A stretch of 64,000 nt of DNA, from positions 1-64,000 of IMG/VR virus record IMGVR_UViG_2908567220_000002, one strand, 5' to 3'. The stretch comes from a virus (Duplodnaviria; Heunggongvirae; Uroviricota; Caudoviricetes). The notes under the pieces are model-generated. The model did no database searches, was not told the DNA's origin, and saw only the letters and a program-made list of their open reading frames with translations. Position numbers and translations under genes: made by a program. Positions 30,363 to 40,388 of the stretch are shown one piece after another (within the stretch, counting starts at the first letter, position 1; each line of letters begins with the position of its first letter).

Positions 30363-31409
30363 CTAACTATTGTTTCTTATTTCATCAAACGTTTGATTAA
30401 ACCTGTCCGTTTCCAGCTCTACACCAATAGCTCTACGTTCCAGAGAGAGCGCAGCCTTTATAGTCGCCCCCGATCCCATAAAAAAGTCTGCAACCAGTTC
30501 CCCCGGACGACTGCTGGCTGTAATTATCTGCCGCAACATATCTGCTGGCTTCTCACACGGATGTTTACCCGGATAATACTGCACAGGTTTGTGCGTCCAG
30601 ACATCCGTATAAGGAACGGCAGCCGATACGGAAAAATAACGCCGCAAAGATTTATACTCTTCCAGCAGGCTGACATATTGCCGGTTCAGTTCGCTGTATG
30701 TGCTGACCAGATGGTGGTGTGGCTTTTCCAGTTCTCCGCGTTGATGTTTTTCTGCTGCAACACGCGCAAACAACGCCTGCAGCTTTCTGTAATCAGCTTC
30801 GTTCGGTAACTGCCACTGGCTGGCACCAAACCAGTGCGAAGCCATGTTTTTCTTTCCGGTGGCTTCCGCTATCTGTTTCGGCGTAATCCCCAGTGATTCA
30901 CGCGCATCACGAAAGTAAGAAATCAGCGGAGCCATGACATGCTGTTTAAGCTCGCGCCCCTTTGCCACATAGCCATCATTTTTTGGCCGATATGGCCCCT
31001 GGTAATGTTCAGCAAACAGTATGTGCTCTGTTGCCGGGAAATATGCCCTCAGGCTTTCCTTCCTGCACCCGTTCCAGCGTCCGGACGGCTTCGCCCAGAT
31101 GATATGGTTAAGCACGTTGAAACGTTCACGCAACATGATCTCGATATCAGATGCCAGACGATGCCCACAGAACAGGTAAAGACTTCCGGCGGGCTTCAGT
31201 ACCCGCCAGAACTGCGCCAGACACTGGTCCAGCCATTTCAGGTAATCATCGTCGCCCTCCCACTGGTTATCCCAGCCCTCGGGCTTCACTTTAAAGTATG
31301 GCGGGTCTGTGACTATCAGATCGACAGAATTTTCCGGTAAGGTCTGGATAAATTCCAGGCAATCAGCGTTGATTAACTCACAACTGGATATTTTTACAGT
31401 ATTGGCCAT
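30363..31409 (-). CDS. DNA N6-adenine methyltransferase (orphan, phage-borne)
   Basis: 348 aa; DPPY motif (VTDPPYFK) and C-terminal AdoMet-binding FMGSGAT motif. Confidence 0.75.
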   Translation of the reverse strand: MANTVKISSCELINADCLEFIQTLPENSVDLIVTDPPYFKVKPEGWDNQWEGDDDYLKWLDQCLAQFWRVLKPAGSLYLFCGHRLASDIEIMLRERFNVLNHIIWAKPSGRWNGCRKESLRAYFPATEHILFAEHYQGPYRPKNDGYVAKGRELKQHVMAPLISYFRDARESLGITPKQIAEATGKKNMASHWFGASQWQLPNEADYRKLQALFARVAAEKHQRGELEKPHHHLVSTYSELNRQYVSLLEEYKSLRRYFSVSAAVPYTDVWTHKPVQYYPGKHPCEKPADMLRQIITASSRPGELVADFFMGSGATIKAALSLERRAIGVELETDRFNQTFDEIRNNS

Positions 31410-32039: not shown

Positions 32040-32573
32040 TCATCTTGTTAACCTGAAATGTTTAGAAAAAGATGACTTAAAACTTGCAACAGGCTCCAAT
32101 ACAGCATGTAAATCTCTTGTAAACCACTTAGTTTCCTGCATGCCCATTTTCAGTAACTTTGAAAGTTGATTGTTACAAGCAATAAAATCTCTCTTGAAAT
32201 CATTTATACCCGATGTTTTTTTTGCACAGAACCCAGCAATTAGTTTTTTTACAGGAATTCCGCAACACCAGGCCAACTCCTCCTCAAAATTTCTTTTCTG
32301 CTGCAAAAGATAAACTTTATGCCCTCTGTTTTTAAGGAACTTTACATTTTCAATGAATCTTGCAGATTGCTCCACTTCATCACTATCAAAGACAATTAGT
32401 ATATCACTTCCCTTCGGAATAGTAATCGCATAATTTCTTATGCTCTCTTGCCAAAAGTTTCTTTTTACAATTGATTTGGCATCAATAACTCTCTGTTGTT
32501 TCATCTTCTGAAAAAGAGAGTTTTCTGTTTCACCTTCGACAAAAATTATTCTTATTTTAGACAACCCCGCCAT
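32040..32573 (-). CDS. Small Toprim-like protein (RloB/AbiLii-like or DUF4276/DUF4435-like), predicted nuclease partner of the upstream ATPase
   Basis: 177 aa; N-terminal IIFVEGETE and downstream IVFDSDE resemble the Toprim Glu and DxD motifs; start overlaps the ATPase stop (TGATG); AT-rich. Confidence 0.6.
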   Translation of the reverse strand: MAGLSKIRIIFVEGETENSLFQKMKQQRVIDAKSIVKRNFWQESIRNYAITIPKGSDILIVFDSDEVEQSARFIENVKFLKNRGHKVYLLQQKRNFEEELAWCCGIPVKKLIAGFCAKKTSGINDFKRDFIACNNQLSKLLKMGMQETKWFTRDLHAVLEPVASFKSSFSKHFRLTR

Positions 32574-33763
32574 CAGAGTAGCTCCGATACTAATGATGTG
32601 TCAGGTAAGACACCAAAGACATCTCTCTCAACAGCGTTTCGCATGCTACGGTCATTTTTTTTAACAACTGAATTTGCTTCAACAAACTCCGAATAGTCTT
32701 TCGTTTTTTTAATAAAAATGAACGAGTGAACAGGCAGATCCAACTCAAAAATATCCATGTTATGTGTTGTATAGAAAAACTGAGTATTTTCTTTCAAATT
32801 AGATATAATCAGCGCCACAATCATACGCTCTAACTCTGAATGTGTATAAGCCAATTTCTCGTCAAGAAAATAAGTCATTGATGGTATTAGAGATTGCTTA
32901 CCTAGTCTTTCACAATCAGAGATAATAGCGCTTATAAAATGCGCTACCGTCACTGCCTCGTATGTTCCTCGAGAAAGACGGTCTGAGTTAATTATTTCAC
33001 CTTTACTGGTAACGACAAGAGAATCAGAGTTTTTAAATTTAATCAGATAAACCGCAGATGATTTATTTTCATCCCCGTCACTTTCAGACTCCAGCATCTC
33101 GGTAACTCCTATAATACTTGAATCGAAAGTGCGAATTATCCTTTCAAGAATATTTTTATTCATTCCTGAAATTGCAGTGGTACTCTCTTTAGTTTCAGAC
33201 AACAAATAGTACCATCCACCAAAAAACTTAAGTTGCTTGAAAAACTCCAATACAACTGGTTCGCTATCAGTAGCTAGTTCCTGAAAAAAATATTCTGTAT
33301 CTCCTGGGGCCCTTCCAGAAAAGAGTTGATTCAGTTTTTCTGTGGTTTTATAGCAAGAATCATTTAATGCTATTTGAACAAAACCATATTTAATTTCTTT
33401 GATTATGTGCGCTCCGCCTTCACTGGTAGCAAAGCGTACATACAAACGATGATGAAAATGTTCCTCCGTAGCAAAGTCCACTTCAAACGAAGCATCATTA
33501 TTTTTATTATTCACTCGCAGATTACTCCGCAACTCTTTGGTTCTTAGAAACACCTGAATTCCACAAAGAATTCGCCCTAGTGACGTCTTACCTGAAGCAT
33601 TCCCCCCCGTTATGATACAGACTTTTTTATAGTAAAATTTAGGCCGTCCAGCCAAAAACTCCCCATCAAGAGGCATGTTTACAGGTTTCCTTGGATAGGA
33701 CAGGTTAAGCTCTGCATCCTCAAAAGCGTACAAATTGATAAATCTCAATCGTGTAAATATCAT
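32573..33763 (-). CDS. ABC-type/AAA ATPase (AAA_15/AAA_21-like; RloA/AbiLi/AriA/OLD-like)
   Basis: ORF 32573-33853; probable start MIFTRLRFINLYAFEDAELNL at 33763 with GGAAG RBS; Walker A GGNASGKTS, Walker B-like TYFLDE, H-loop-like YTTHN. Confidence 0.7.
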   Translation of the reverse strand: MIFTRLRFINLYAFEDAELNLSYPRKPVNMPLDGEFLAGRPKFYYKKVCIITGGNASGKTSLGRILCGIQVFLRTKELRSNLRVNNKNNDASFEVDFATEEHFHHRLYVRFATSEGGAHIIKEIKYGFVQIALNDSCYKTTEKLNQLFSGRAPGDTEYFFQELATDSEPVVLEFFKQLKFFGGWYYLLSETKESTTAISGMNKNILERIIRTFDSSIIGVTEMLESESDGDENKSSAVYLIKFKNSDSLVVTSKGEIINSDRLSRGTYEAVTVAHFISAIISDCERLGKQSLIPSMTYFLDEKLAYTHSELERMIVALIISNLKENTQFFYTTHNMDIFELDLPVHSFIFIKKTKDYSEFVEANSVVKKNDRSMRNAVERDVFGVLPDTSLVSELL

Positions 33764-33852
33764 TCTTATCTTCCATATGTTGGAACTTAACGTAAGTATT
33801 GTCCAGACCTTGATGAACGTCAACAAGATTGATAGCTGATGCACTTCTATCA

Positions 33853-34410
33853 TCAGTTATCAGAAAAGCACCGAAGTGCCACGCACATTGGAAGGAAAAG
33901 CATGGTTTCAGCCATCGCCAACCAAACATCAATGCGATTTCTACAAGTTTTCAGGCTCCAGTCAGGGTGATTCTTTTTTAACTGTTCTGCCATTTTCAGC
34001 TTGCTCATTCCCAGCCCTTCATATCTTTGTCGGAGGATACAAATCAATCCCGGATGCTCTGCCAACACTTCACTAATTACCCGATCGATACATAACGCCT
34101 CGGCATCAGTACAATAAGCCAGCCCGCTCTTTTGCTTGCTGTTGATCATCTCACGCAAAAACGCTTCCAGCTCAGTTTTATCAATCCCTGATTTTTTTAT
34201 TCTGCGCAGAGCTTCATTGATCGCAGTTTTTGTAAGTGTTTTGGATGCCAGCAACTGATTGAACATATTTCCTGGTTTGCCACCACCTATGTACGACCAA
34301 CGCCCCCACATCCGTAATTTCCCCTGGATCCAGACGGCTTCCAGCGTTTTTAGACGTAAATGCTCGCCGCTTTTGCCTGTAATTTCCGGGTATATCATAT
34401 TTACGATCAC
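33853..34410 (-). CDS. Putative late-gene antiterminator Q-like protein (phage 21/82-type); identification tentative
   Basis: 185 aa directly downstream of rusA (canonical Q position); RMWGRW motif resembles the WGxW motif recalled for 21-type Q. Confidence 0.45.
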   Translation of the reverse strand: MIVNMIYPEITGKSGEHLRLKTLEAVWIQGKLRMWGRWSYIGGGKPGNMFNQLLASKTLTKTAINEALRRIKKSGIDKTELEAFLREMINSKQKSGLAYCTDAEALCIDRVISEVLAEHPGLICILRQRYEGLGMSKLKMAEQLKKNHPDWSLKTCRNRIDVWLAMAETMLFLPMCVALRCFSDN

Positions 34411-36103: not shown

Positions 36104-36270
36104 CTGTTTTCTCTGCTGGCGCAGCAGGTGTCAGGTGTTCAGGCTGACGTGCGAATTGTAAACCAGAATGCCAGGAAAAAACAAAACCCGCCGAAGCGGG
36201 TTAAGTGCGGGTGCGTTGAGGATGCCTGACTCATCAGAGGTGGCGAGGGATTTCTCCCTCGCCTGGTCTC

Positions 36271-36426
36271 TTACTCCTCAGGTTCGTAAGCTGTGAAGAC
36301 AGCGACCTCCGTCTGGCCGGTTCGGATTCGTACCTCGCAGAGGTCTTTCCTCGTTACCAGTGCCGTCATTATGACGGTTAAACAGATGACGATCAGGGCG
36401 ATTAACATCGCCTTTTGCTGCTTCAT
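36271..36426 (-). CDS. hokD: Hok-family type I toxin (HokD/RelF-like)
   Basis: MKQQKAMLIALIVICLTVIMTALVTRKDLCEVRIRTGQTEVAVFTAYEPEE, near-identical to HokD as recalled; the longer in-frame ORF to 36483 may be the mok-like frame. Confidence 0.8.
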   Translation of the reverse strand: MKQQKAMLIALIVICLTVIMTALVTRKDLCEVRIRTGQTEVAVFTAYEPEE

Positions 36427-36836
36427 AGCCTGCTTCTCCTTGCCTTTCGGCACGTAAGAGGCTAACCTAGATTTGCCGTTCATAGATTGAGCCTCAGATT
36501 AATGTATAAGCGTCTTGCAGGACGCATAATGTTAACTGGGGCTTTTCTCTATCTGCCTTTGGTGTTCATGCTTGAGGCAGATAGCCTCAAGCACCCGCAG
36601 CAATTTTACTTAACTCCCCTTTTCCCACAAATCGTTTTTATCCCTACTGGTAATGTTCTCCCGATGTGGGATTCCCACATTGGAACGAATTCAATCAGTT
36701 AAAGACTCATCAGAATCTCACCTTTCTAAGTGCCCACAGGTGAGGCATTGCAATAAAAATAGCAAACGTGTATAAAAGGAGGTAATGCATGTTTTTCCAG
36801 TCTTATCAATCCATTACTGAGAGTTAAGGGGGCGCC

Positions 36837-37631
36837 GTGGATCGGTGCGGTAATTATTTACTTAAAGATGGTCGCAGTTTAGGACAAGGGAGTTTTGGCG
36901 AAGTATTTAAGGTTGATGTCTATAACTTAACCCAGACCCACATGACCACATATGCTCGCAAATACTTTTCACCTTGCCCGGACTTTGACAAGACCGCTAT
37001 AAAAGAGTTGACTGATTTAAGACAGCGTTTTTTAGTTGAGATCAAAACACAATGCACTCTCAATAGAATAAACTATGATTCAATAGCGCCAATAGTTTTA
37101 TTTAATACAAATGGTGATAAACCTTATTTTGTTATGGAATTGGCAGAGTGTAACTTATATGAAGCCATCCGCAATGGTATGAATTACGCGGAGAGGAAGT
37201 CTGCTGTTACTCAGATTTTAAAAGGAATTATCACCATACATGAAAACAACTATATACATCGTGATTTAAAACCAGGAAACATACTTTATTATGCCGATGG
37301 AAAGTATAAAATATCTGATTTTGGTCTAGTAAAAGACAGAGATACCTTACGGGCCGAAATCAAAACAAAATTTAAGCCTAATCACATGGGCACAGATGGA
37401 TATCGAGCGCCCGAAATACATGATAGCGGTCTTTTTTCTTTTCAAAGCGACATATTTGCAGCAGGTAAAATTATCACTGATATATATCCCACAGAAAGAA
37501 GTGAAAAATTAAAAAGATTGATTGCAAAATGTTGCGCACATTGGCCTGAAGAACGATATCAAAGCACACGGGAGTTACTGGAAGATTTTTTAAAAGTGAC
37601 GGGGGAGGTAAATCATGAAGAACATAATTGA
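36837..37631 (+). CDS. Hanks-type (eukaryotic-like) serine/threonine protein kinase, kinase domain only
   Basis: GTG start with RBS TAAGGGGG; glycine loop GQGSFGEV, lysine YARK, catalytic loop HRDLKPGN, DFG, APE; AT-rich versus flanks. Confidence 0.85.
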   Translation: MDRCGNYLLKDGRSLGQGSFGEVFKVDVYNLTQTHMTTYARKYFSPCPDFDKTAIKELTDLRQRFLVEIKTQCTLNRINYDSIAPIVLFNTNGDKPYFVMELAECNLYEAIRNGMNYAERKSAVTQILKGIITIHENNYIHRDLKPGNILYYADGKYKISDFGLVKDRDTLRAEIKTKFKPNHMGTDGYRAPEIHDSGLFSFQSDIFAAGKIITDIYPTERSEKLKRLIAKCCAHWPEERYQSTRELLEDFLKVTGEVNHEEHN

Positions 37632-38331
37632 AATGGCATGTTTTAGCCTAAAACAACCCCAAAAAAAAGAAAATGAAGACTTTTATTTACCGCCATCTTT
37701 TGATAGCGATTTTAACATTGTCTTTGCAGTAGCTGATGGGGTTGGTTCCTCTGAACATTCAATGCTTGCATCTCATGCAGCCATTCGTGGCATTAGACAC
37801 ACGCTAGGCACTTCCTTTTTCTCAATTGAAAGTGCATTTCATTCAGCTAAAAAAGAAATTGACAATTTAGATATTAGCACTGCCACAACCTTAACAATTG
37901 TTCAGATCAAAAAAAATGAAGTGTTAATTGGTCATTCCGGTGATTGCCGAGTATACTTCAATAAAAACAACAAACTAAATCAGTTAACCACTGATCAAAC
38001 GAGATATCAAGAACTCCTTGATTCTGGTGAACATAAATTACGTAATTTAAGAAATCATAAAGAACGGCTATCTTCAGTCCTAACGAATGCTTTATCAAAT
38101 ACAACGGATTTGAATTTTGAGTTAATGTCTTTTCCGATTAGCCAGCTAATTTATAATGGCTATCTTCAACTCTATGCAATGACTGATGGTGCCTATAAGC
38201 ATTGGGATGTCAGACCAAGGTTTTCTGAGAAGACAATGCTCTCACCAACAGCTTTTGCGAGTAGTTTAAGAAAAAGGATTGAGAAAAACATAATGGATGA
38301 TTACACTTTTATAGGCGTAAAAGTAACCTAA
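37615..38331 (+). CDS. PP2C-family serine/threonine phosphatase
   Basis: ATG with RBS GGGGGAGG; overlaps the kinase gene by 17 nt; motifs FAVADGVGS, GHSGDCR, TDG. Confidence 0.75.
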   Translation: MKNIIEMACFSLKQPQKKENEDFYLPPSFDSDFNIVFAVADGVGSSEHSMLASHAAIRGIRHTLGTSFFSIESAFHSAKKEIDNLDISTATTLTIVQIKKNEVLIGHSGDCRVYFNKNNKLNQLTTDQTRYQELLDSGEHKLRNLRNHKERLSSVLTNALSNTTDLNFELMSFPISQLIYNGYLQLYAMTDGAYKHWDVRPRFSEKTMLSPTAFASSLRKRIEKNIMDDYTFIGVKVT

Positions 38332-38485
38332 TTTTAGATATCCAAGATATTTACTCTAATTTAACCATAGTATTCCCAACCTCTTTTTATTGGGGGTTGG
38401 GTTCATTAAAGTCACCATTTTCTATTTCTTTCCCGTTAGAGGATATATTATTTCCAGATAAAGAAAGCAACTTCTTATGCAACTT

Positions 38486-38590
38486 CATATCACGCCATGC
38501 TTCCACCGCGGTAACTCTACATAGTCCATTAACAGTTCATGCCATTCTTCAAAACTGGCGTTATATTTAGTTGAAGCAAAATCAGCCATT
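38486..38590 (-). CDS. Tiny hypothetical ORF (34 aa), coupled to the upstream acidic ORF
   Basis: MADFASTKYNASFEEWHELLMDYVELPRWKHGVI; RBS GAGGAAG; start 1 nt after the stop of the 38592-38765 ORF; below the six-frame track threshold. Confidence 0.3.
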
Positions 38591-38591
38591 T

Positions 38592-38765
38592 TATTCTTCC
38601 TCTTCGTCTTTTATTTCGTGATATGAGTAATTGCAGTAGTTAAAGAAAATATCTTTTGCTTCGTCATGTATTTCATCAGGCGTCGCATCATCATCCACTT
38701 CGAATTCATCCTCGAAATCTCCACCGGCTATTCCCGTTTCAATAATTATTTTGAACTTTCGCATT
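38592..38765 (-). CDS. Small highly acidic protein (57 aa)
   Basis: MRKFKIIIETGIAGGDFEDEFEVDDDATPDEIHDEAKDIFFNYCNYSYHEIKDEEE; below the six-frame track threshold. Confidence 0.3.
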
Positions 38766-38853
38766 TAACTACCGCCCTGCCGGACAGCCTCCTGATGTTC
38801 TGAGGGCGCCCCCCTCCGGTTAAGGATTAAATTTTTAACAGTGCTAAATTTAA

Positions 38854-39210
38854 TTATTCAGTTCTTGATTTTGTCGCCCTGCGTATCCGCGCTTTCGCGT
38901 TACGCTCAATCTGAATTAGCTTTTCTATATTTTTCCGCCTTTCCTGTTCCTCCTGGAGCAATAACCTTACATCATCTGCCAGTCTGGTTTCTCTTTTCGC
39001 CACAGAGAGCATCCAGTCAAATGGCTCCACAACTGCACCGCAGATTTTACAGCGGACCTGACGCTCTTTTTCGTCAACCCGGACAGAGGCGTGATGGCAA
39101 TATGGTCTTTCCGATGGCTCATAAAGAAAATTAACCTGATTACGAGGGTCATCCTCTTTTGCCGGAAATAAAACGATATTGCTTAACTCATCTTCTGGTT
39201 TTATTTCCAT
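38854..39210 (-). CDS. Hypothetical protein with zinc-ribbon-like Cys motif
   Basis: ORF 38854-39291; probable start MEIKPEDE; CHH...CKICG. Confidence 0.45.
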   Translation of the reverse strand: MEIKPEDELSNIVLFPAKEDDPRNQVNFLYEPSERPYCHHASVRVDEKERQVRCKICGAVVEPFDWMLSVAKRETRLADDVRLLLQEEQERRKNIEKLIQIERNAKARIRRATKSRTE

Positions 39211-39907
39211 GCTCCTCTCCTTTGATGCGAATGCCAGCGGCGCGTGGCACATTAACTTCCACGATGCGCACAGTTGGTTTGTACATCTCAATCGCTGTCA
39301 GCCAGTCAGCTCCTGTCATGCGTTTTTCCGCATCGCCATTAGTCCACTGAACCGGCACACCAATAGCCTTCATCGCGATTTCTATTTCCCCGGCAATGGC
39401 GCTTTTTCCGCAACCAGTAAAACCAGATACAACGACAAGAACTTCGCCTTTGGCTGGTTTTATTTCCCGTGCTTCCAGTTCTGCTATGCGCTTACTTCCA
39501 TCCGCGATTACTCCCTCGTAATACTCACGCTGCTCGTTGAGTTTTGATTTTGCTGCTTCAAGCTCAACGCGCAGCTTCCCTACCGTTAGCGCAATCTCCT
39601 CGTTCTCCTGGTCGCGGCGTTTTATGTATTGCTGGTTTCTTTCCCGTTCATCCAGCAGTGCCAGTACGGTAGCCGGGTTAGCCTCTGCTATAAATGCTGC
39701 GTTTGCATAAGCCTGAGCATCTGTTTCAACCAGGCAGTTAGCATGACATTCTGCAATCACGCCACCGGGTTCTCCTTTCCATTTTTGACAAACAAAAACT
39801 CCTGTTAAATTGCCGTACTGGTTAACAGATGTATGCCCTACGATGTAGCTTCCTTTAGTTGCTTTTTCTGCCTTGGCACGCAGTACCTGATAGTCAATCT
39901 TGCTCAC
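39188..39907 (-). CDS. ead/Ea22-like protein
   Basis: 239 aa; N-terminal MSKIDYQVLRAKAEKATKG and central coiled-coil segment, as in lambdoid Ea22-like proteins. Confidence 0.55.
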   Translation of the reverse strand: MSKIDYQVLRAKAEKATKGSYIVGHTSVNQYGNLTGVFVCQKWKGEPGGVIAECHANCLVETDAQAYANAAFIAEANPATVLALLDERERNQQYIKRRDQENEEIALTVGKLRVELEAAKSKLNEQREYYEGVIADGSKRIAELEAREIKPAKGEVLVVVSGFTGCGKSAIAGEIEIAMKAIGVPVQWTNGDAEKRMTGADWLTAIEMYKPTVRIVEVNVPRAAGIRIKGEEHGNKTRR

Positions 39908-40388
39908 TGGTTGCCTCCTTCACAAAAATAATCCAATGTGTTTTATCGTTCTTGCCGGTGCGCTGGCTGATGATTGGTTTCGCGTCGGTTAGTGCCAATA
40001 TCTGGCGGACAGGCACTTGCGTTTCATTCCATTTAAAAATCAGAATGCCGTGTGGCCACAACACACGAAAGGCTTCTTTAAATCCCTGCCTCAAATCATC
40101 ACGCCAGGTATCTTTATTCAGCCGCCCATATTTCTTTCCCATCCAGGCGTTATCACCAACACGCTCAAGATGCGGAGGGTCGAATACAACAACCGGAAAC
40201 GATGCGTCTGCAAATGGTAATGCACGAAAATCTGCTATCAGGTCAGGGCTAATTATCAGTCGTCGTCCATCACATAATGTGTGCTCTTCCTTTCTGATAT
40301 CGCTAAATATCGCCCGGTCGTCATTCTTATCGAACCAGAACATGCGGCTGCCACAGCACATATCAAGAATGGTTGCCGGTGCACTCAC
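39894..40388 (-). CDS. Small DNA methyltransferase (DPPH motif; N6-adenine or N4-cytosine type)
   Basis: 164 aa; motif I-like ILDMCCGS and catalytic VVFDPPH. Confidence 0.6.
   Translation of the reverse strand: MSAPATILDMCCGSRMFWFDKNDDRAIFSDIRKEEHTLCDGRRLIISPDLIADFRALPFADASFPVVVFDPPHLERVGDNAWMGKKYGRLNKDTWRDDLRQGFKEAFRVLWPHGILIFKWNETQVPVRQILALTDAKPIISQRTGKNDKTHWIIFVKEATSEQD

What the first reader, a model, noticed from the sequence alone, without database searches (positions are those of the whole stretch)
36837..38331. Overlapping Hanks-type Ser/Thr kinase and PP2C phosphatase pair carried as a prophage moron
Two AT-rich genes on the opposite strand to the early-right operon, overlapping by 17 nt. 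The first has every canonical kinase motif (GQGSFGEV, YARK, HRDLKPGN, DFG, APE); the second has PP2C motifs (DGVGS, GDCR, TDG). A prophage-encoded eukaryotic-like kinase causing abortive infection is known from phage 933W (Stk), and Stk-type kinases act in staphylococcal phage defence; a tightly coupled cognate phosphatase suggests a built-in off-switch, so this looks like a two-component phosphosignalling defence or host-manipulation module. I could not confirm from memory that this exact kinase-PP2C architecture has been characterised.
Basis: partly seen in the sequence, partly recalled or inferred. Interest (0 to 1): 0.8.

Follow-up and report, generated by a model that had tools for sequence, protein, structure and literature searches.

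The report
Two-gene kinase–phosphatase prophage cassette
A lambdoid prophage carries a small self-contained insert encoding a bare protein kinase and a matching PP2C phosphatase. The same pair recurs in the accessory-gene slots of many phages and satellites, so it is a good but untested candidate for a minimal phosphorylation-based toxin/antitoxin or anti-phage module related to the known KKP system.

Summary
ORFs 36837-37631 (264 aa) and 37615-38331 (238 aa) overlap by 17 nt. They are a complete Hanks-type kinase (Pfam Pkinase 1.4e-31) and a complete PP2C phosphatase (PP2C_2 1.4e-10), with all catalytic residues present and confident AlphaFold models. They lie in an AT-rich 1.86-kb insert (36644-38499), antisense to the early-right operon, with promoter-like and terminator-like elements of their own.

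New here: kinase→PP2C is a conserved, co-inherited two-gene cassette. It was found in 9/9 genome neighbourhoods and 80/80 IMG/VR loci, usually with a 4-nt ATGA overlap. It occupies the classic accessory slots: after cI, after Q, after the lysis genes, and the P4 psu–int defence hotspot.

The link to 933W Stk is weak (27% identity over the C-lobe). The closest characterised system is KKP (Guo et al. 2024), a prophage PP2C–kinase–kinase toxin/antitoxin and defence module. This cassette fails KKP's defining features: it has two genes, not three, in reverse order, with no CSD or FHA domains. I found no functional study of the two-gene form.

Best reading: a phospho-switch toxin/antitoxin used for defence or exclusion, with the kinase as toxin and the phosphatase as antidote. 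This rests on analogy and context and is not shown. It is a new variant of a known kind, of moderate interest.

The parts
36644..38499 (.). Cargo segment (moron). This 1,856 bp is present here in place of 791 bp of small ORFs found in the common version of this prophage region.
   Evidence: blastn of the window against L101 and L102 shows homology ending at 36643 and resuming at 38500. GC is 0.34-0.37.
36748..36776 (+). Promoter-like element: TTGCAA, 17-nt spacer, TATAAA.
   Evidence: Read from the sequence. The two hexamers and their spacing are conserved in the Pantoea P4-like satellite and in IMG/VR L022, although the surroundings are unrelated. The consensus scan missed it because the last base of the -10 hexamer is A. 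Function was not shown.
36826..36832 (+). Shine-Dalgarno-like AAGGGGG, 4 nt upstream of the kinase GTG start.
   Evidence: Sequence. The element is conserved in close relatives.
36837..37631 (+). Kinase gene: 264 aa, a bare Hanks-type (RD) protein kinase domain.
   Evidence: Pfam Pkinase 1.4e-31. Across the family, G18, G21, K42, E68, H141-R142-D143, N148, D161-F162-G163, D205 and R240 are invariant, and G16, K145-P146 and A191-P192-E193 are at least 90% conserved. A Thr at position 177 or 178 of the activation loop is present in 63/64 sequences. AF2 pLDDT is 90.2 with a kinase fold.
37604..37608 (+). GGAGG ribosome-binding site for the phosphatase, located inside the 3' end of the kinase gene.
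   Evidence: Sequence.
37615..37631 (+). 17-nt overlap of kinase stop and phosphatase start, consistent with translational coupling.
   Evidence: In most of the 80 IMG/VR relatives the junction is a 4-nt ATGA-type overlap.
37615..38331 (+). PP2C/PPM phosphatase gene: 238 aa, catalytic domain only.
   Evidence: Pfam PP2C_2 1.4e-10. D22, D41-G42, G109-D110, D191-G192 and D228-D229 are invariant. AF2 pLDDT is 93.5, with TM 0.77-0.78 to M. tuberculosis PstP and tPphA.
37661..37668 (+). Poly(A)8 tract in codons 16-18 of the phosphatase gene, a frameshift-prone site.
   Evidence: An A7 variant occurs in L096 (ETEC1730) and in IMG/VR L023, both with an intact kinase. ETEC1717 and ETEC1718 match over 1,494 instead of 1,495 bases, like ETEC1730, but were not inspected directly.
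38375..38401 (+). Terminator-like hairpin (10-bp stem) 44 nt after the phosphatase stop codon.
   Evidence: RNA fold gives -21.3 kcal/mol, z = -2.2. Unrelated hairpins sit at the same place in the Pantoea and L022 cassettes. The T-run is weak, so function is not shown.

Best explanation
This is a self-contained two-gene phospho-switch carried as a prophage moron. The kinase acts as a latent toxin or effector, and the co-translated PP2C phosphatase acts as its enzymatic antidote (a type VII-like toxin/antitoxin).

Proposed steps:
1. The cassette is transcribed from its own sigma-70-type promoter, antisense to the pR operon, so it is probably expressed in the lysogen (inferred).
2. Kinase and phosphatase are made in a fixed ratio through overlapping stop and start codons (the overlap is shown; the coupling is inferred).
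3. The kinase is a complete RD-type Hanks kinase with a conserved activation-loop Thr (shown), so it probably needs loop phosphorylation to be active (family knowledge).
4. The PP2C has all its metal-binding aspartates (shown). It is proposed to keep the kinase and its substrates dephosphorylated in the healthy lysogen. This follows PfpC in KKP and, from general knowledge, the PknB-PstP pair (inferred).
5. When a competing phage infects, a phage protein is proposed to tip the balance by inhibiting the phosphatase or activating the kinase. Broad phosphorylation of host or phage proteins would then arrest growth and abort the infection, protecting the lysogen population (inferred by analogy with KKP/T4 Gp59 and 933W Stk/HK97).

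The module may also feed back on prophage regulation, as KKP does.
For: Both enzymes are intact and modelled with confidence.

The kinase→PP2C order, adjacency and overlapping junction are conserved in 9/9 genome contexts and in 80/80 IMG/VR loci. The two proteins co-diverge: Mantel r = 0.91, with 0 of 999 permutations reaching it.

The cassette moves as a unit between unrelated slots that are typical for lysogen-expressed or defence cargo:
- immediately downstream of the cI/S24 repressor (HTH_3, Peptidase_S24 and CI_repr among upstream neighbours);
- between Q and the holin;
- between Rz and the terminase;
- the P4 psu-int hotspot in Pantoea, Klebsiella and E. coli, which Rousset 2022 defined as a defence hotspot.

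The promoter-like element travels with the cassette.

Gene decay leans towards the kinase. Five independent lesions inactivate the kinase while the PP2C stays intact (L025, L030, L039, L065, L067/L068). This is the pattern expected when the kinase is the harmful partner.

The precedent is KKP, a prophage PP2C plus two kinases that acts as a toxin/antitoxin and defence system, with its phosphatase inhibited by T4 Gp59 (PMC11341870). The kinase domain also hits PADLOC defence kinases: mad6 1e-37, PD-T4-6 1e-32, Stk2 3e-25. The same prophage carries hok/sok and an AbiL-like pair.
Against: No experiment bears on toxicity or defence.

Neither protein has any sensor or partner-binding domain, so how a trigger would be sensed is unknown.

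The phosphatase hits no PADLOC model.

The ETEC1730 genome (two sibling genomes show the same 1-base-shorter match) and IMG/VR L023 carry a frameshift in the PP2C poly(A)8 tract with an intact kinase. If these are real and not homopolymer sequencing errors, the kinase is tolerated without its phosphatase.

In several phages the pair lies in the late operon, after Q or after the lysis genes. That placement also fits expression during lytic growth.

The alternative cargo at this particular hokD-DUF7167 slot is two small unknown genes, not known defence systems.

The decay asymmetry rests on small numbers: 5 kinase lesions against 1-2 phosphatase lesions.
Confidence: 0.55

Rival explanations
1. 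The cassette is a regulatory switch for the prophage or host and not a defence system. The kinase/phosphatase balance would set the phosphorylation state of host nucleoid or regulatory proteins, or of phage regulators. This would tune lysogeny maintenance, induction or host physiology, like the MvaU arm of KKP.
For: KKP controls Pf lysogeny through MvaU phosphorylation (PMC11341870). Many relatives sit directly next to cI. A reversible kinase/phosphatase pair is a natural switch. The AT-rich cassette is the kind of DNA that H-NS-type silencers bind (general knowledge).
Against: The cassette hops between unrelated phage types, satellites, a mobilisable element and chromosomal islets with different regulators. 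That argues against a dedicated phage-specific target. It also occupies the P4 psu-int slot, which mostly holds defence cargo.
Confidence: 0.2
2. The kinase is a lytic-cycle host-takeover enzyme, comparable to T7 gp0.7. It would phosphorylate host machinery after induction or infection to favour phage development, and the phosphatase would limit or time the effect.
For: In Flotzy, phiES15 and a Yersinia prophage the pair is co-oriented with the late genes and lies downstream of Q or of the lysis genes. Phage kinases that act in takeover are known (summarised in PMC8008677).
Against: In this window the cassette is antisense to the early and late transcription units. In other relatives it is co-transcribed with cI, or sits in satellites and non-phage islets. 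It is accessory, being present in only 35 of 5,426 complete E. coli genomes, while the flanking prophage backbone occurs in more than 1,200.
Confidence: 0.1
3. The cassette is purely an addiction or stabilisation module. The kinase/phosphatase toxin/antitoxin would only stabilise the prophage or mobile element that carries it, through post-segregational killing, with no role against other phages.
For: The architecture looks like a toxin/antitoxin pair. It sits next to hok/sok, a classical stabilisation locus, and travels with it in a 98.4%-identical block. Kinase-only decay is also seen.
Against: An enzymatic antidote gives post-segregational killing only if it is much less stable than the toxin, and nothing supports that here. 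Comparable toxin/antitoxin systems in the same hotspots have turned out to give phage defence (PMC9122126, PMC11341870).
Confidence: 0.1
4. The cassette is non-functional or decaying cargo with no current role.
For: It is rare in E. coli (0.6% of complete genomes). Some copies carry lesions.
Against: Both ORFs are intact here. Every catalytic residue is conserved down to about 33% identity, across Enterobacterales, Vibrionaceae, Aeromonas, Pasteurellaceae and Acinetobacter. The gene junction is conserved.
Confidence: 0.03

Closest known systems
KKP (PfpC-PfkB-PfkA) kinase-kinase-phosphatase module of Pf6 and other prophages (Guo et al., Nat Commun 2024, PMC11341870)
   Same: Both are cargo of prophages and satellites (P2, P4 and others) in Gram-negative bacteria. 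Both combine a Hanks-type kinase with a PP2C_2 phosphatase in one operon. KKP was shown to be a toxin/antitoxin in which the phosphatase neutralises kinase toxicity, and to defend against lytic phages. That is the proposed working model here.
   Different: KKP has three genes in the order PP2C→kinase→kinase, each 300-430 aa. Its defining features are a CSD-fused PfkA and an FHA-fused PfkB. Here there are two genes in the order kinase→PP2C, bare catalytic domains of 264 and 238 aa, with no CSD or FHA. A PP2C-kinase-kinase module in Klebsiella phage Kp4865-2 is only 29% (kinase) and 32% over 76 aa (PP2C) identical. The kinase family here is a discrete clade: at least 136 bits, against at most 86 bits for all other kinases.
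933W Stk (prophage tyrosine/Ser-Thr-like kinase that aborts HK97 infection; Friedman et al. 2011, cited in PMC8008677)
   Same: Both are eukaryotic-like kinases encoded by a lambdoid prophage as accessory genes. Some relatives of this cassette occupy the same post-cI slot as stk.
   Different: Identity is only 27% over 197 aa of the C-lobe, and no 933W record is among the tblastn matches. Stk is 348 aa and has no phosphatase partner. In this window the cassette is in the nin/hokD region, not the immunity region.
Single-gene defence kinases: Stk2 (Staphylococcus), PD-T4-6 (E. coli) and the MADS kinase mad6
   Same: The kinase domain hits their PADLOC models (mad6 1.1e-37, PD-T4-6 1.2e-32, Stk2 2.6e-25). 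All are thought to act by phosphorylating many targets on infection.
   Different: The matches cover only the catalytic domain: 57% of the PD-T4-6 profile, 29% of mad6 and 40% of Stk2. Those proteins carry extra domains and have no dedicated phosphatase. Against NCBIfam MAD6 the kinase scores 70.6 bits, with a cut-off of 460.
TerY-P triad (TerY vWA + PP2C + Ser/Thr kinase fused to a Zn-ribbon or OB fold; Anantharaman 2012, Gao 2020, summarised in PMC11090510)
   Same: A kinase and a PP2C phosphatase work together in a validated anti-phage cassette.
   Different: There is no vWA/TerY gene and no Zn-ribbon or OB fusion here. The phosphatase matches no PADLOC model at all.
Housekeeping bacterial kinase/phosphatase pairs (PknB-PstP, StkP-PhpP, Stk1-Stp1)
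   Same: These are the closest solved structures and profiles: StkP 2e-31, PstP 8e-20 with TM 0.77, tPphA and Stp1. In these pairs the PP2C reverses activation-loop phosphorylation of its cognate kinase (general knowledge).
   Different: Those kinases are membrane receptors with PASTA or other sensor domains, are chromosomal and core, and usually have the phosphatase gene first. The scores here are far below the equivalog cut-offs: 88.9 against 450 for the kinase and 68 against 230 for the phosphatase.

Membership tests
Hanks-type (eukaryotic-like) protein kinase, Pfam PF00069 | Profile score above the curated cut-off | tested here: met
   110.3 bits against a cut-off of 31.7, E 1.4e-31.
Hanks-type (eukaryotic-like) protein kinase, Pfam PF00069 | Complete catalytic motif set: G-loop, VAIK Lys, alphaC Glu, HRDxKxxN, DFG, APE, and the subdomain IX Asp and XI Arg | tested here: met
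   G16xG18xxG21, K42, E68, H141-R142-D143-L-K145-P-G-N148, D161-F162-G163, A191-P192-E193, D205 and R240. Each is invariant or at least 90% conserved across 64 family members.
Hanks-type (eukaryotic-like) protein kinase, Pfam PF00069 | Bilobal kinase fold | tested here: met
   AF2 pLDDT 90.2 and pTM 0.88. Foldseek against PDB kinase domains gives E around 1e-16 and TM 0.72-0.78.
Hanks-type (eukaryotic-like) protein kinase, Pfam PF00069 | Phosphotransfer activity and residue specificity (Ser/Thr or Tyr) | not testable with these tools
   The HRDLKPGN and G(T/S)xxYxAPE motifs are of the Ser/Thr type (sequence). 933W Stk shows that motifs alone do not settle specificity.
PPM/PP2C phosphatase (Pfam PF13672 PP2C_2) | Profile score above the curated cut-off | tested here: met
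   41.5 bits against 24.
PPM/PP2C phosphatase (Pfam PF13672 PP2C_2) | Metal-coordinating Asp residues of motifs I, II, VIII and XI | tested here: met
   D22, D41-G42, D191-G192 and D228-D229 are invariant in 70 sequences.
PPM/PP2C phosphatase (Pfam PF13672 PP2C_2) | PPM beta-sandwich fold | tested here: met
   AF2 pLDDT 93.5. TM is 0.77-0.78 to PstP (1TXO) and tPphA.
Stp1/IreP-family PP2C (NCBIfam NF033484 equivalog) | Score above the equivalog cut-off | tested here: not met
   68 bits against a cut-off of 230.
KKP (kinase-kinase-phosphatase) module | Three-gene operon in the order PP2C, kinase, kinase, each 900-1300 bp | tested here: not met
   Two genes in the order kinase then PP2C, 795 and 717 bp. 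The same holds in 89 of 89 relatives examined.
KKP (kinase-kinase-phosphatase) module | PfkA-type kinase fused to a cold-shock domain, stated by the authors to be the defining feature | tested here: not met
   The 264 aa are filled by the kinase domain. There is no CSD hit in Pfam at E <= 0.1.
KKP (kinase-kinase-phosphatase) module | PfkB-type kinase fused to an FHA domain | tested here: not met
   There is no second kinase and no FHA hit.
KKP (kinase-kinase-phosphatase) module | Location in temperate prophages or satellites | tested here: met
   The cassette is found in lambdoid prophages, P4-like satellites and other mobile elements.
KKP (kinase-kinase-phosphatase) module | Kinase toxic, phosphatase neutralises it; defence against lytic phages | not testable with these tools
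   Only indirect evidence exists: five kinase-only lesions against one or two PP2C-only lesions.
933W Stk-type exclusion kinase | Orthology to Stk | tested here: not met
   Identity is 27% over 197 aa, pairwise E 5e-10. No 933W record is among the 35 phage records found by tblastn at E <= 1e-3.
933W Stk-type exclusion kinase | Encoded in the immunity region downstream of cI and expressed in the lysogen | tested here: not met
   In this window the cassette lies between hokD and the nin-type genes. The feature is met by relatives in Glaesserella and several IMG/VR prophages.
PD-T4-6 / Stk2 / MAD6 defence kinases (PADLOC, NCBIfam) | Full-length match to the system's profile | tested here: not met
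   Only the catalytic-domain part of each profile matched: 16-202 of 327, 162-360 of 500 and 54-246 of 659. NCBIfam MAD6 gives 70.6 bits against a cut-off of 460.
TerY-P triad | Adjacent TerY-like vWA gene; kinase fused to a Zn-ribbon or OB fold | tested here: not met
   There is no third co-oriented gene, no such domains, and the PP2C has no PADLOC hit. The definition is taken from PMC11090510.
Moron (accessory transcription unit inserted between conserved phage genes) | Extra DNA between flanks that are conserved in related phages, with deviating base composition | tested here: met
   36644-38499 replaces 791 bp in L101 and L102. GC is 0.35 against 0.5. The backbone flank occurs in more than 1,200 genomes, the cassette in 35.
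Moron (accessory transcription unit inserted between conserved phage genes) | Own promoter and terminator | tested here: inconclusive
   TTGCAA-17-TATAAA is conserved with the cassette in three unrelated contexts, and hairpins follow the PP2C stop codon. The consensus scan did not call either, and there are no expression data.

The most novel reading that the evidence does not exclude
The bare kinase→PP2C pair is a new, minimal two-gene anti-phage / abortive-infection family, distinct from KKP. Immunity would be triggered when an invading phage disturbs the kinase/phosphatase balance, with the enzymes themselves as the sensors because no accessory domain exists. The family would have spread among gammaproteobacterial prophages, P4/P2 elements and small islands through every classic moron slot.
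Probability: 0.4. Interest if true: 0.6.

Novelty: new variant of a known kind. Interest (0 to 1): 0.45.

Why it matters
Kinase-based phage immunity is known from only a few systems: Stk, Stk2, PD-T4-6, TerY-P and KKP. How they sense infection is mostly unclear.

A cassette made only of two catalytic domains would be the simplest experimental model. It could be used to ask how a kinase/phosphatase balance is tipped by a phage, which targets matter, and whether the phosphatase is a guarded decoy.

The cassette also occurs in Shiga-toxin-producing and enterotoxigenic E. coli prophages (O103, O145, O157, O45, O121 and pig ETEC). It could therefore affect superinfection, prophage induction and phage-therapy outcomes in those strains.

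Current defence-finder models would either miss it or mislabel the kinase alone.

Tried and rejected
- DNA-level search of the phage collection found nothing. Protein-level search was needed to find Flotzy and phiES15.
- I considered a uORF with a strong SD upstream of the kinase (36789-36827). It is not conserved in the closest cassettes, and its SD overlaps the -10/TSS region, so I rejected it.
- I tested whether the hokD-DUF7167 slot is itself a defence hotspot. The common alternative cargo is two small unknown genes, so this slot gives no independent support.
- I looked for CSD and FHA domains in a P2-like PP2C-kinase-kinase module (Kp4865-2) to use as a KKP reference. Pfam found none even at E <= 10, so that module could only be called KKP-like by gene order and size.
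- I searched complete E. coli genomes for the e14-type and Flotzy-type variants and found no match.
- Literature searches for the RefSeq accessions, and for phiES15 together with kinase and phosphatase, gave nothing relevant.
- Foldseek ranks tyrosine kinases (FGFR2, RET) first for the kinase model. I do not read this as evidence for Tyr specificity, because the catalytic-loop and P+1 motifs are of the Ser/Thr type and the profile search ranks StkP and MAPKs first.
- phrog_5650 matches the PP2C at profile positions 273-517 of 565. This suggested fused kinase-PP2C proteins, but none was seen among 89 loci, so I did not pursue it.
Full report
**1. Observation**

ORF 36837-37631 (+, GTG start, 264 aa) and ORF 37615-38331 (+, ATG start, 238 aa) share 17 nt. 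AAGGGGG lies 4 nt before the GTG, and GGAGG lies 6 nt before the ATG, inside the end of the kinase gene.

All quoted motifs are present in the translations. GC falls to 0.34-0.37 across about 36750-38750, against about 0.5 on both sides. The neighbours are all on the - strand:
- the Q-like antiterminator (DUF1133/Phage_antitermQ, 33853-34410);
- RusA, DUF968 and hokD on one side;
- DUF7167, a Zn-ribbon protein, Ead/Ea22 and an orphan methyltransferase on the other.

So the pair is antisense to the early-right operon of a lambdoid prophage. An annotated near-identical copy in E. coli O103:H2 12009 sits in a prophage integrated next to ompW.

**2. What the proteins are**

The kinase:
- It scores 110 bits on Pfam Pkinase, against a cut-off of 31.7.
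- In an alignment of 64 family members, G18, G21, K42, E68, H141-R142-D143, N148, D161-F162-G163, D205 and R240 are invariant. G16, K145-P146 and A191-P192-E193 are at least 90% conserved.
- It is an RD kinase. A threonine at position 177 or 178 of the activation loop is present in 63 of 64 sequences.
- The AlphaFold model is confident (pLDDT 90.2). It is a plain bilobal kinase domain with no room for anything else, and only the activation loop and the last six residues are uncertain.

The phosphatase:
- It passes Pfam PP2C_2 (41.5 bits against 24).
- It keeps every metal-binding aspartate: D22, D41-G42, D191-G192 and D228-D229.
- Its model has pLDDT 93.5 and superposes on M. tuberculosis PstP and cyanobacterial tPphA with TM 0.77-0.78.

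Neither protein reaches the equivalog cut-offs of the housekeeping Stk1/Stp1 families.

**3. A conserved, mobile two-gene cassette**

*The families.* Homologues of the phosphatase form a compact family of about 240-aa proteins. They occur in Enterobacterales, Vibrionaceae, Aeromonas, Shewanella, Pasteurellaceae and Acinetobacter. An exhaustive profile search finds only about 20-25 clusters at 50% identity that clearly belong, each scoring above 170 bits. The kinase homologues form an equally discrete clade of 241-285-aa proteins. They score at least 136 bits, while all other kinases score at most 86 bits.

*Conserved pairing.* A kinase of this clade lies immediately upstream on the same strand in every neighbourhood examined:
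- nine genome or phage contexts;
- all 80 IMG/VR loci, most often with a 4-nt stop/start overlap.

Pairwise identities of the two proteins are tightly correlated across 51 distinct cassettes (Mantel r = 0.91, 0 of 999 permutations). This shows co-inheritance as a unit. No third gene is conserved.

*Different slots.* The cassette sits in different places in different elements:
- between Rz and the small terminase in Escherichia phage Flotzy;
- between Q and the lysis genes, the stx slot, in Cronobacter phage phiES15 and a Yersinia prophage;
- directly after the cI-type S24 repressor in Glaesserella prophages, the rexAB/stk slot;
- between psu and int of P4-like satellites in Pantoea, Klebsiella and E. 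coli;
- in a small mobilisable element in Vibrio, an e14-like remnant at icd in E. coli, and chromosomal islets in Acinetobacter and Aeromonas.

A Pfam census of the dereplicated neighbours of the IMG/VR loci gives the same picture. Lysozyme/Rz, RusA/Q and HTH_3/Peptidase_S24/CI_repr lie upstream. Terminase subunits, holin and integrase lie downstream.

**4. Anatomy in this window**

Many E. coli genomes carry the same prophage backbone without the cassette. The right flank occurs in more than 1,200 genomes, the cassette in 35 of 5,426. Compared with that common version, window segment 36644-38499 replaces 791 bp of small ORFs.

Between this window and the O103 prophage, a 98.4%-identical block (36177-39241) contains hok/sok, the cassette and DUF7167. 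It is embedded in flanks that are only 85-88% identical or unrelated. The region is therefore mosaic.

A TTGCAA-17 nt-TATAAA element (36748-36776) is conserved together with the cassette in the Pantoea P4-like satellite and in IMG/VR L022, although the DNA further upstream is unrelated. Homology among the three ends at the PP2C stop codon, and each copy has its own hairpin there.

This matches the classical description of a moron. Promoter and terminator function remain inferred, because the simple consensus scan called neither.

**5. How it most likely works**

The closest characterised system is KKP (Guo et al. 2024, PMC11341870). [quoted passage not shown] T4 Gp59 inhibits the phosphatase, unleashing kinase activity that blocks phage production. 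KKP also controls Pf lysogeny through phosphorylation of MvaU.

By analogy, I propose that the cassette here is a two-gene phospho-switch with the kinase as latent toxin and the phosphatase as enzymatic antidote, triggered by a superinfecting phage. The basis for each element is:
- *Shown:* intact catalytic machinery, the conserved activation-loop Thr, the overlapping genes, and the cassette's mobility and slots.
- *Inferred from family knowledge:* an RD kinase needs loop phosphorylation, and a cognate PP2C reverses it.
- *Inferred by analogy:* toxicity, trigger and abortive infection.

One piece of indirect support is the pattern of gene decay. Five independent cassettes have the kinase destroyed while the PP2C stays intact:
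- N-terminal deletions in L025, L065 and L067/L068;
- a nonsense codon in L039;
- a frameshift in L030.

Against this, an A8→A7 frameshift in the phosphatase's poly(A) tract, with an intact kinase, was confirmed in ETEC1730 and in L023. Two sibling pig ETEC genomes show the same 1-base-shorter match. These may be homopolymer sequencing errors. If they are real, they argue that the kinase is tolerated alone. The numbers are small either way.

Further caveats:
- Neither protein has a sensor domain.
- The phosphatase matches no PADLOC model.
- The late-operon placement in several phages also fits a role during lytic growth.

I give the defence/toxin-antitoxin reading 0.55. The rivals are a regulatory switch without defence (0.2), lytic-cycle takeover (0.1), pure addiction (0.1) and dead cargo (0.03).

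**6. Comparison with known systems**

*KKP.* The cassette may work like KKP, but it is not a member. KKP is defined by three genes in the order PP2C-kinase-kinase, with a CSD-fused PfkA and an FHA-fused PfkB. None of these features is present here. A PP2C-kinase-kinase module that I located in the P2-like Klebsiella phage Kp4865-2 shares only 29% (kinase) and 32% over 76 aa (PP2C) with the window proteins.

*933W Stk.* It is a distant relative only: 27% over the C-lobe, and no 933W record appears among the tblastn matches. It has no phosphatase partner.

*Stk2, PD-T4-6 and mad6.* Their PADLOC hits cover only the catalytic domain.

*TerY-P.* It requires a vWA protein and a Zn-ribbon- or OB-fused kinase (PMC11090510). 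Both are absent.

*Rousset et al. 2022 (PMC9122126).*
- The paper defined the P4 psu-int hotspot.
- Its tables list 'Pkinase + PP2C_2' among P2 hotspot cargo and 'Pkinase | Pkinase | PP2C' among P4 cargo.
- Only a 'phosphatase + kinase + kinase' construct was cloned.

I found no paper that tests the two-gene kinase→PP2C form. The library does not cover most subscription journals, so this absence is not proof.

**7. Verdict**

The proteins themselves are ordinary members of two very large enzyme families and are already correctly named in RefSeq.

What is not in the literature I could search is the recognition of a discrete, widely mobile, minimal kinase→PP2C cassette that occupies defence and moron slots. 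It is best classed as a new variant of a known kind, namely prophage kinase/phosphatase modules.

After the KKP paper it would not greatly surprise a specialist. It is, however, a clean and cheap experimental target. Interest: 0.45.

Noticed in passing
window 32040-33853 (- strand): There is a second AT-rich island (GC 0.33-0.39) directly downstream of the Q-like antiterminator. It has a 426-aa ATPase matching PADLOC AbiLi (9.6e-26) and Pfam AAA_15, plus a 177-aa partner with no hits. This is probably an AbiL-like two-gene defence candidate in the post-Q slot of the same prophage.
   Followed up: partly
window 36271-36600 (- strand): A hokD/sok type I toxin-antitoxin locus (Rfam sok 110 bits) lies directly left of the kinase cassette. 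It travels with the cassette in a 98.4%-identical block (36177-39241) shared with the O103:H2 prophage.
   Followed up: partly
window 37661-37668: A poly(A)8 tract lies at codons 16-18 of the PP2C gene. An A7 frameshift variant with an intact kinase was confirmed in ETEC1730 and in IMG/VR L023 (ETEC1717 and ETEC1718 show the same 1-base-shorter match). This is either homopolymer sequencing error or genuine slipped-strand inactivation of the phosphatase.
   Followed up: partly
window 38591-38764 (- strand): This is a DUF7167 gene encoding a 57-aa, very acidic protein, also AT-rich. It lies at the right edge of the cassette and is widespread in E. coli prophages, in more than 1,200 genomes. Its function is unknown.
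   Followed up: no
window 39894-40388 (- strand): A small orphan DNA methyltransferase (PADLOC MTase_II 1.2e-71) lies in the nin-like region. A second N6_N4 methylase is at 30363-31409.
   Followed up: no
L095 (Klebsiella phage Kp4865-2, OK490418) 3881-7072: An unannotated P2-like phage carries PP2C (364 aa), kinase (358 aa), kinase (356 aa) and an integrase. This is a KKP-like module by order and size, but Pfam detects no CSD or FHA in the C-terminal extensions even at E <= 10.
   Followed up: partly
L025, L030, L039, L065, L067, L068 (IMG/VR): In these cassettes the kinase is deleted, truncated, frameshifted or carries a nonsense codon, while the PP2C stays full length. They look like 'orphan antidote' remnants.
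   Followed up: yes
window 36181-36262 (- strand): A weak sub-threshold Rfam match to the isrK Hfq-binding sRNA (27.8 bits against a gathering score of 50, E 0.003) lies just downstream of hokD.
   Followed up: no
PHROG phrog_5650 (profile): The PP2C matches only positions 273-517 of a 565-position PHROG profile of unknown function. This hints that some phage proteins in that PHROG are longer or fused. No fusion was seen among the loci examined.
   Followed up: no
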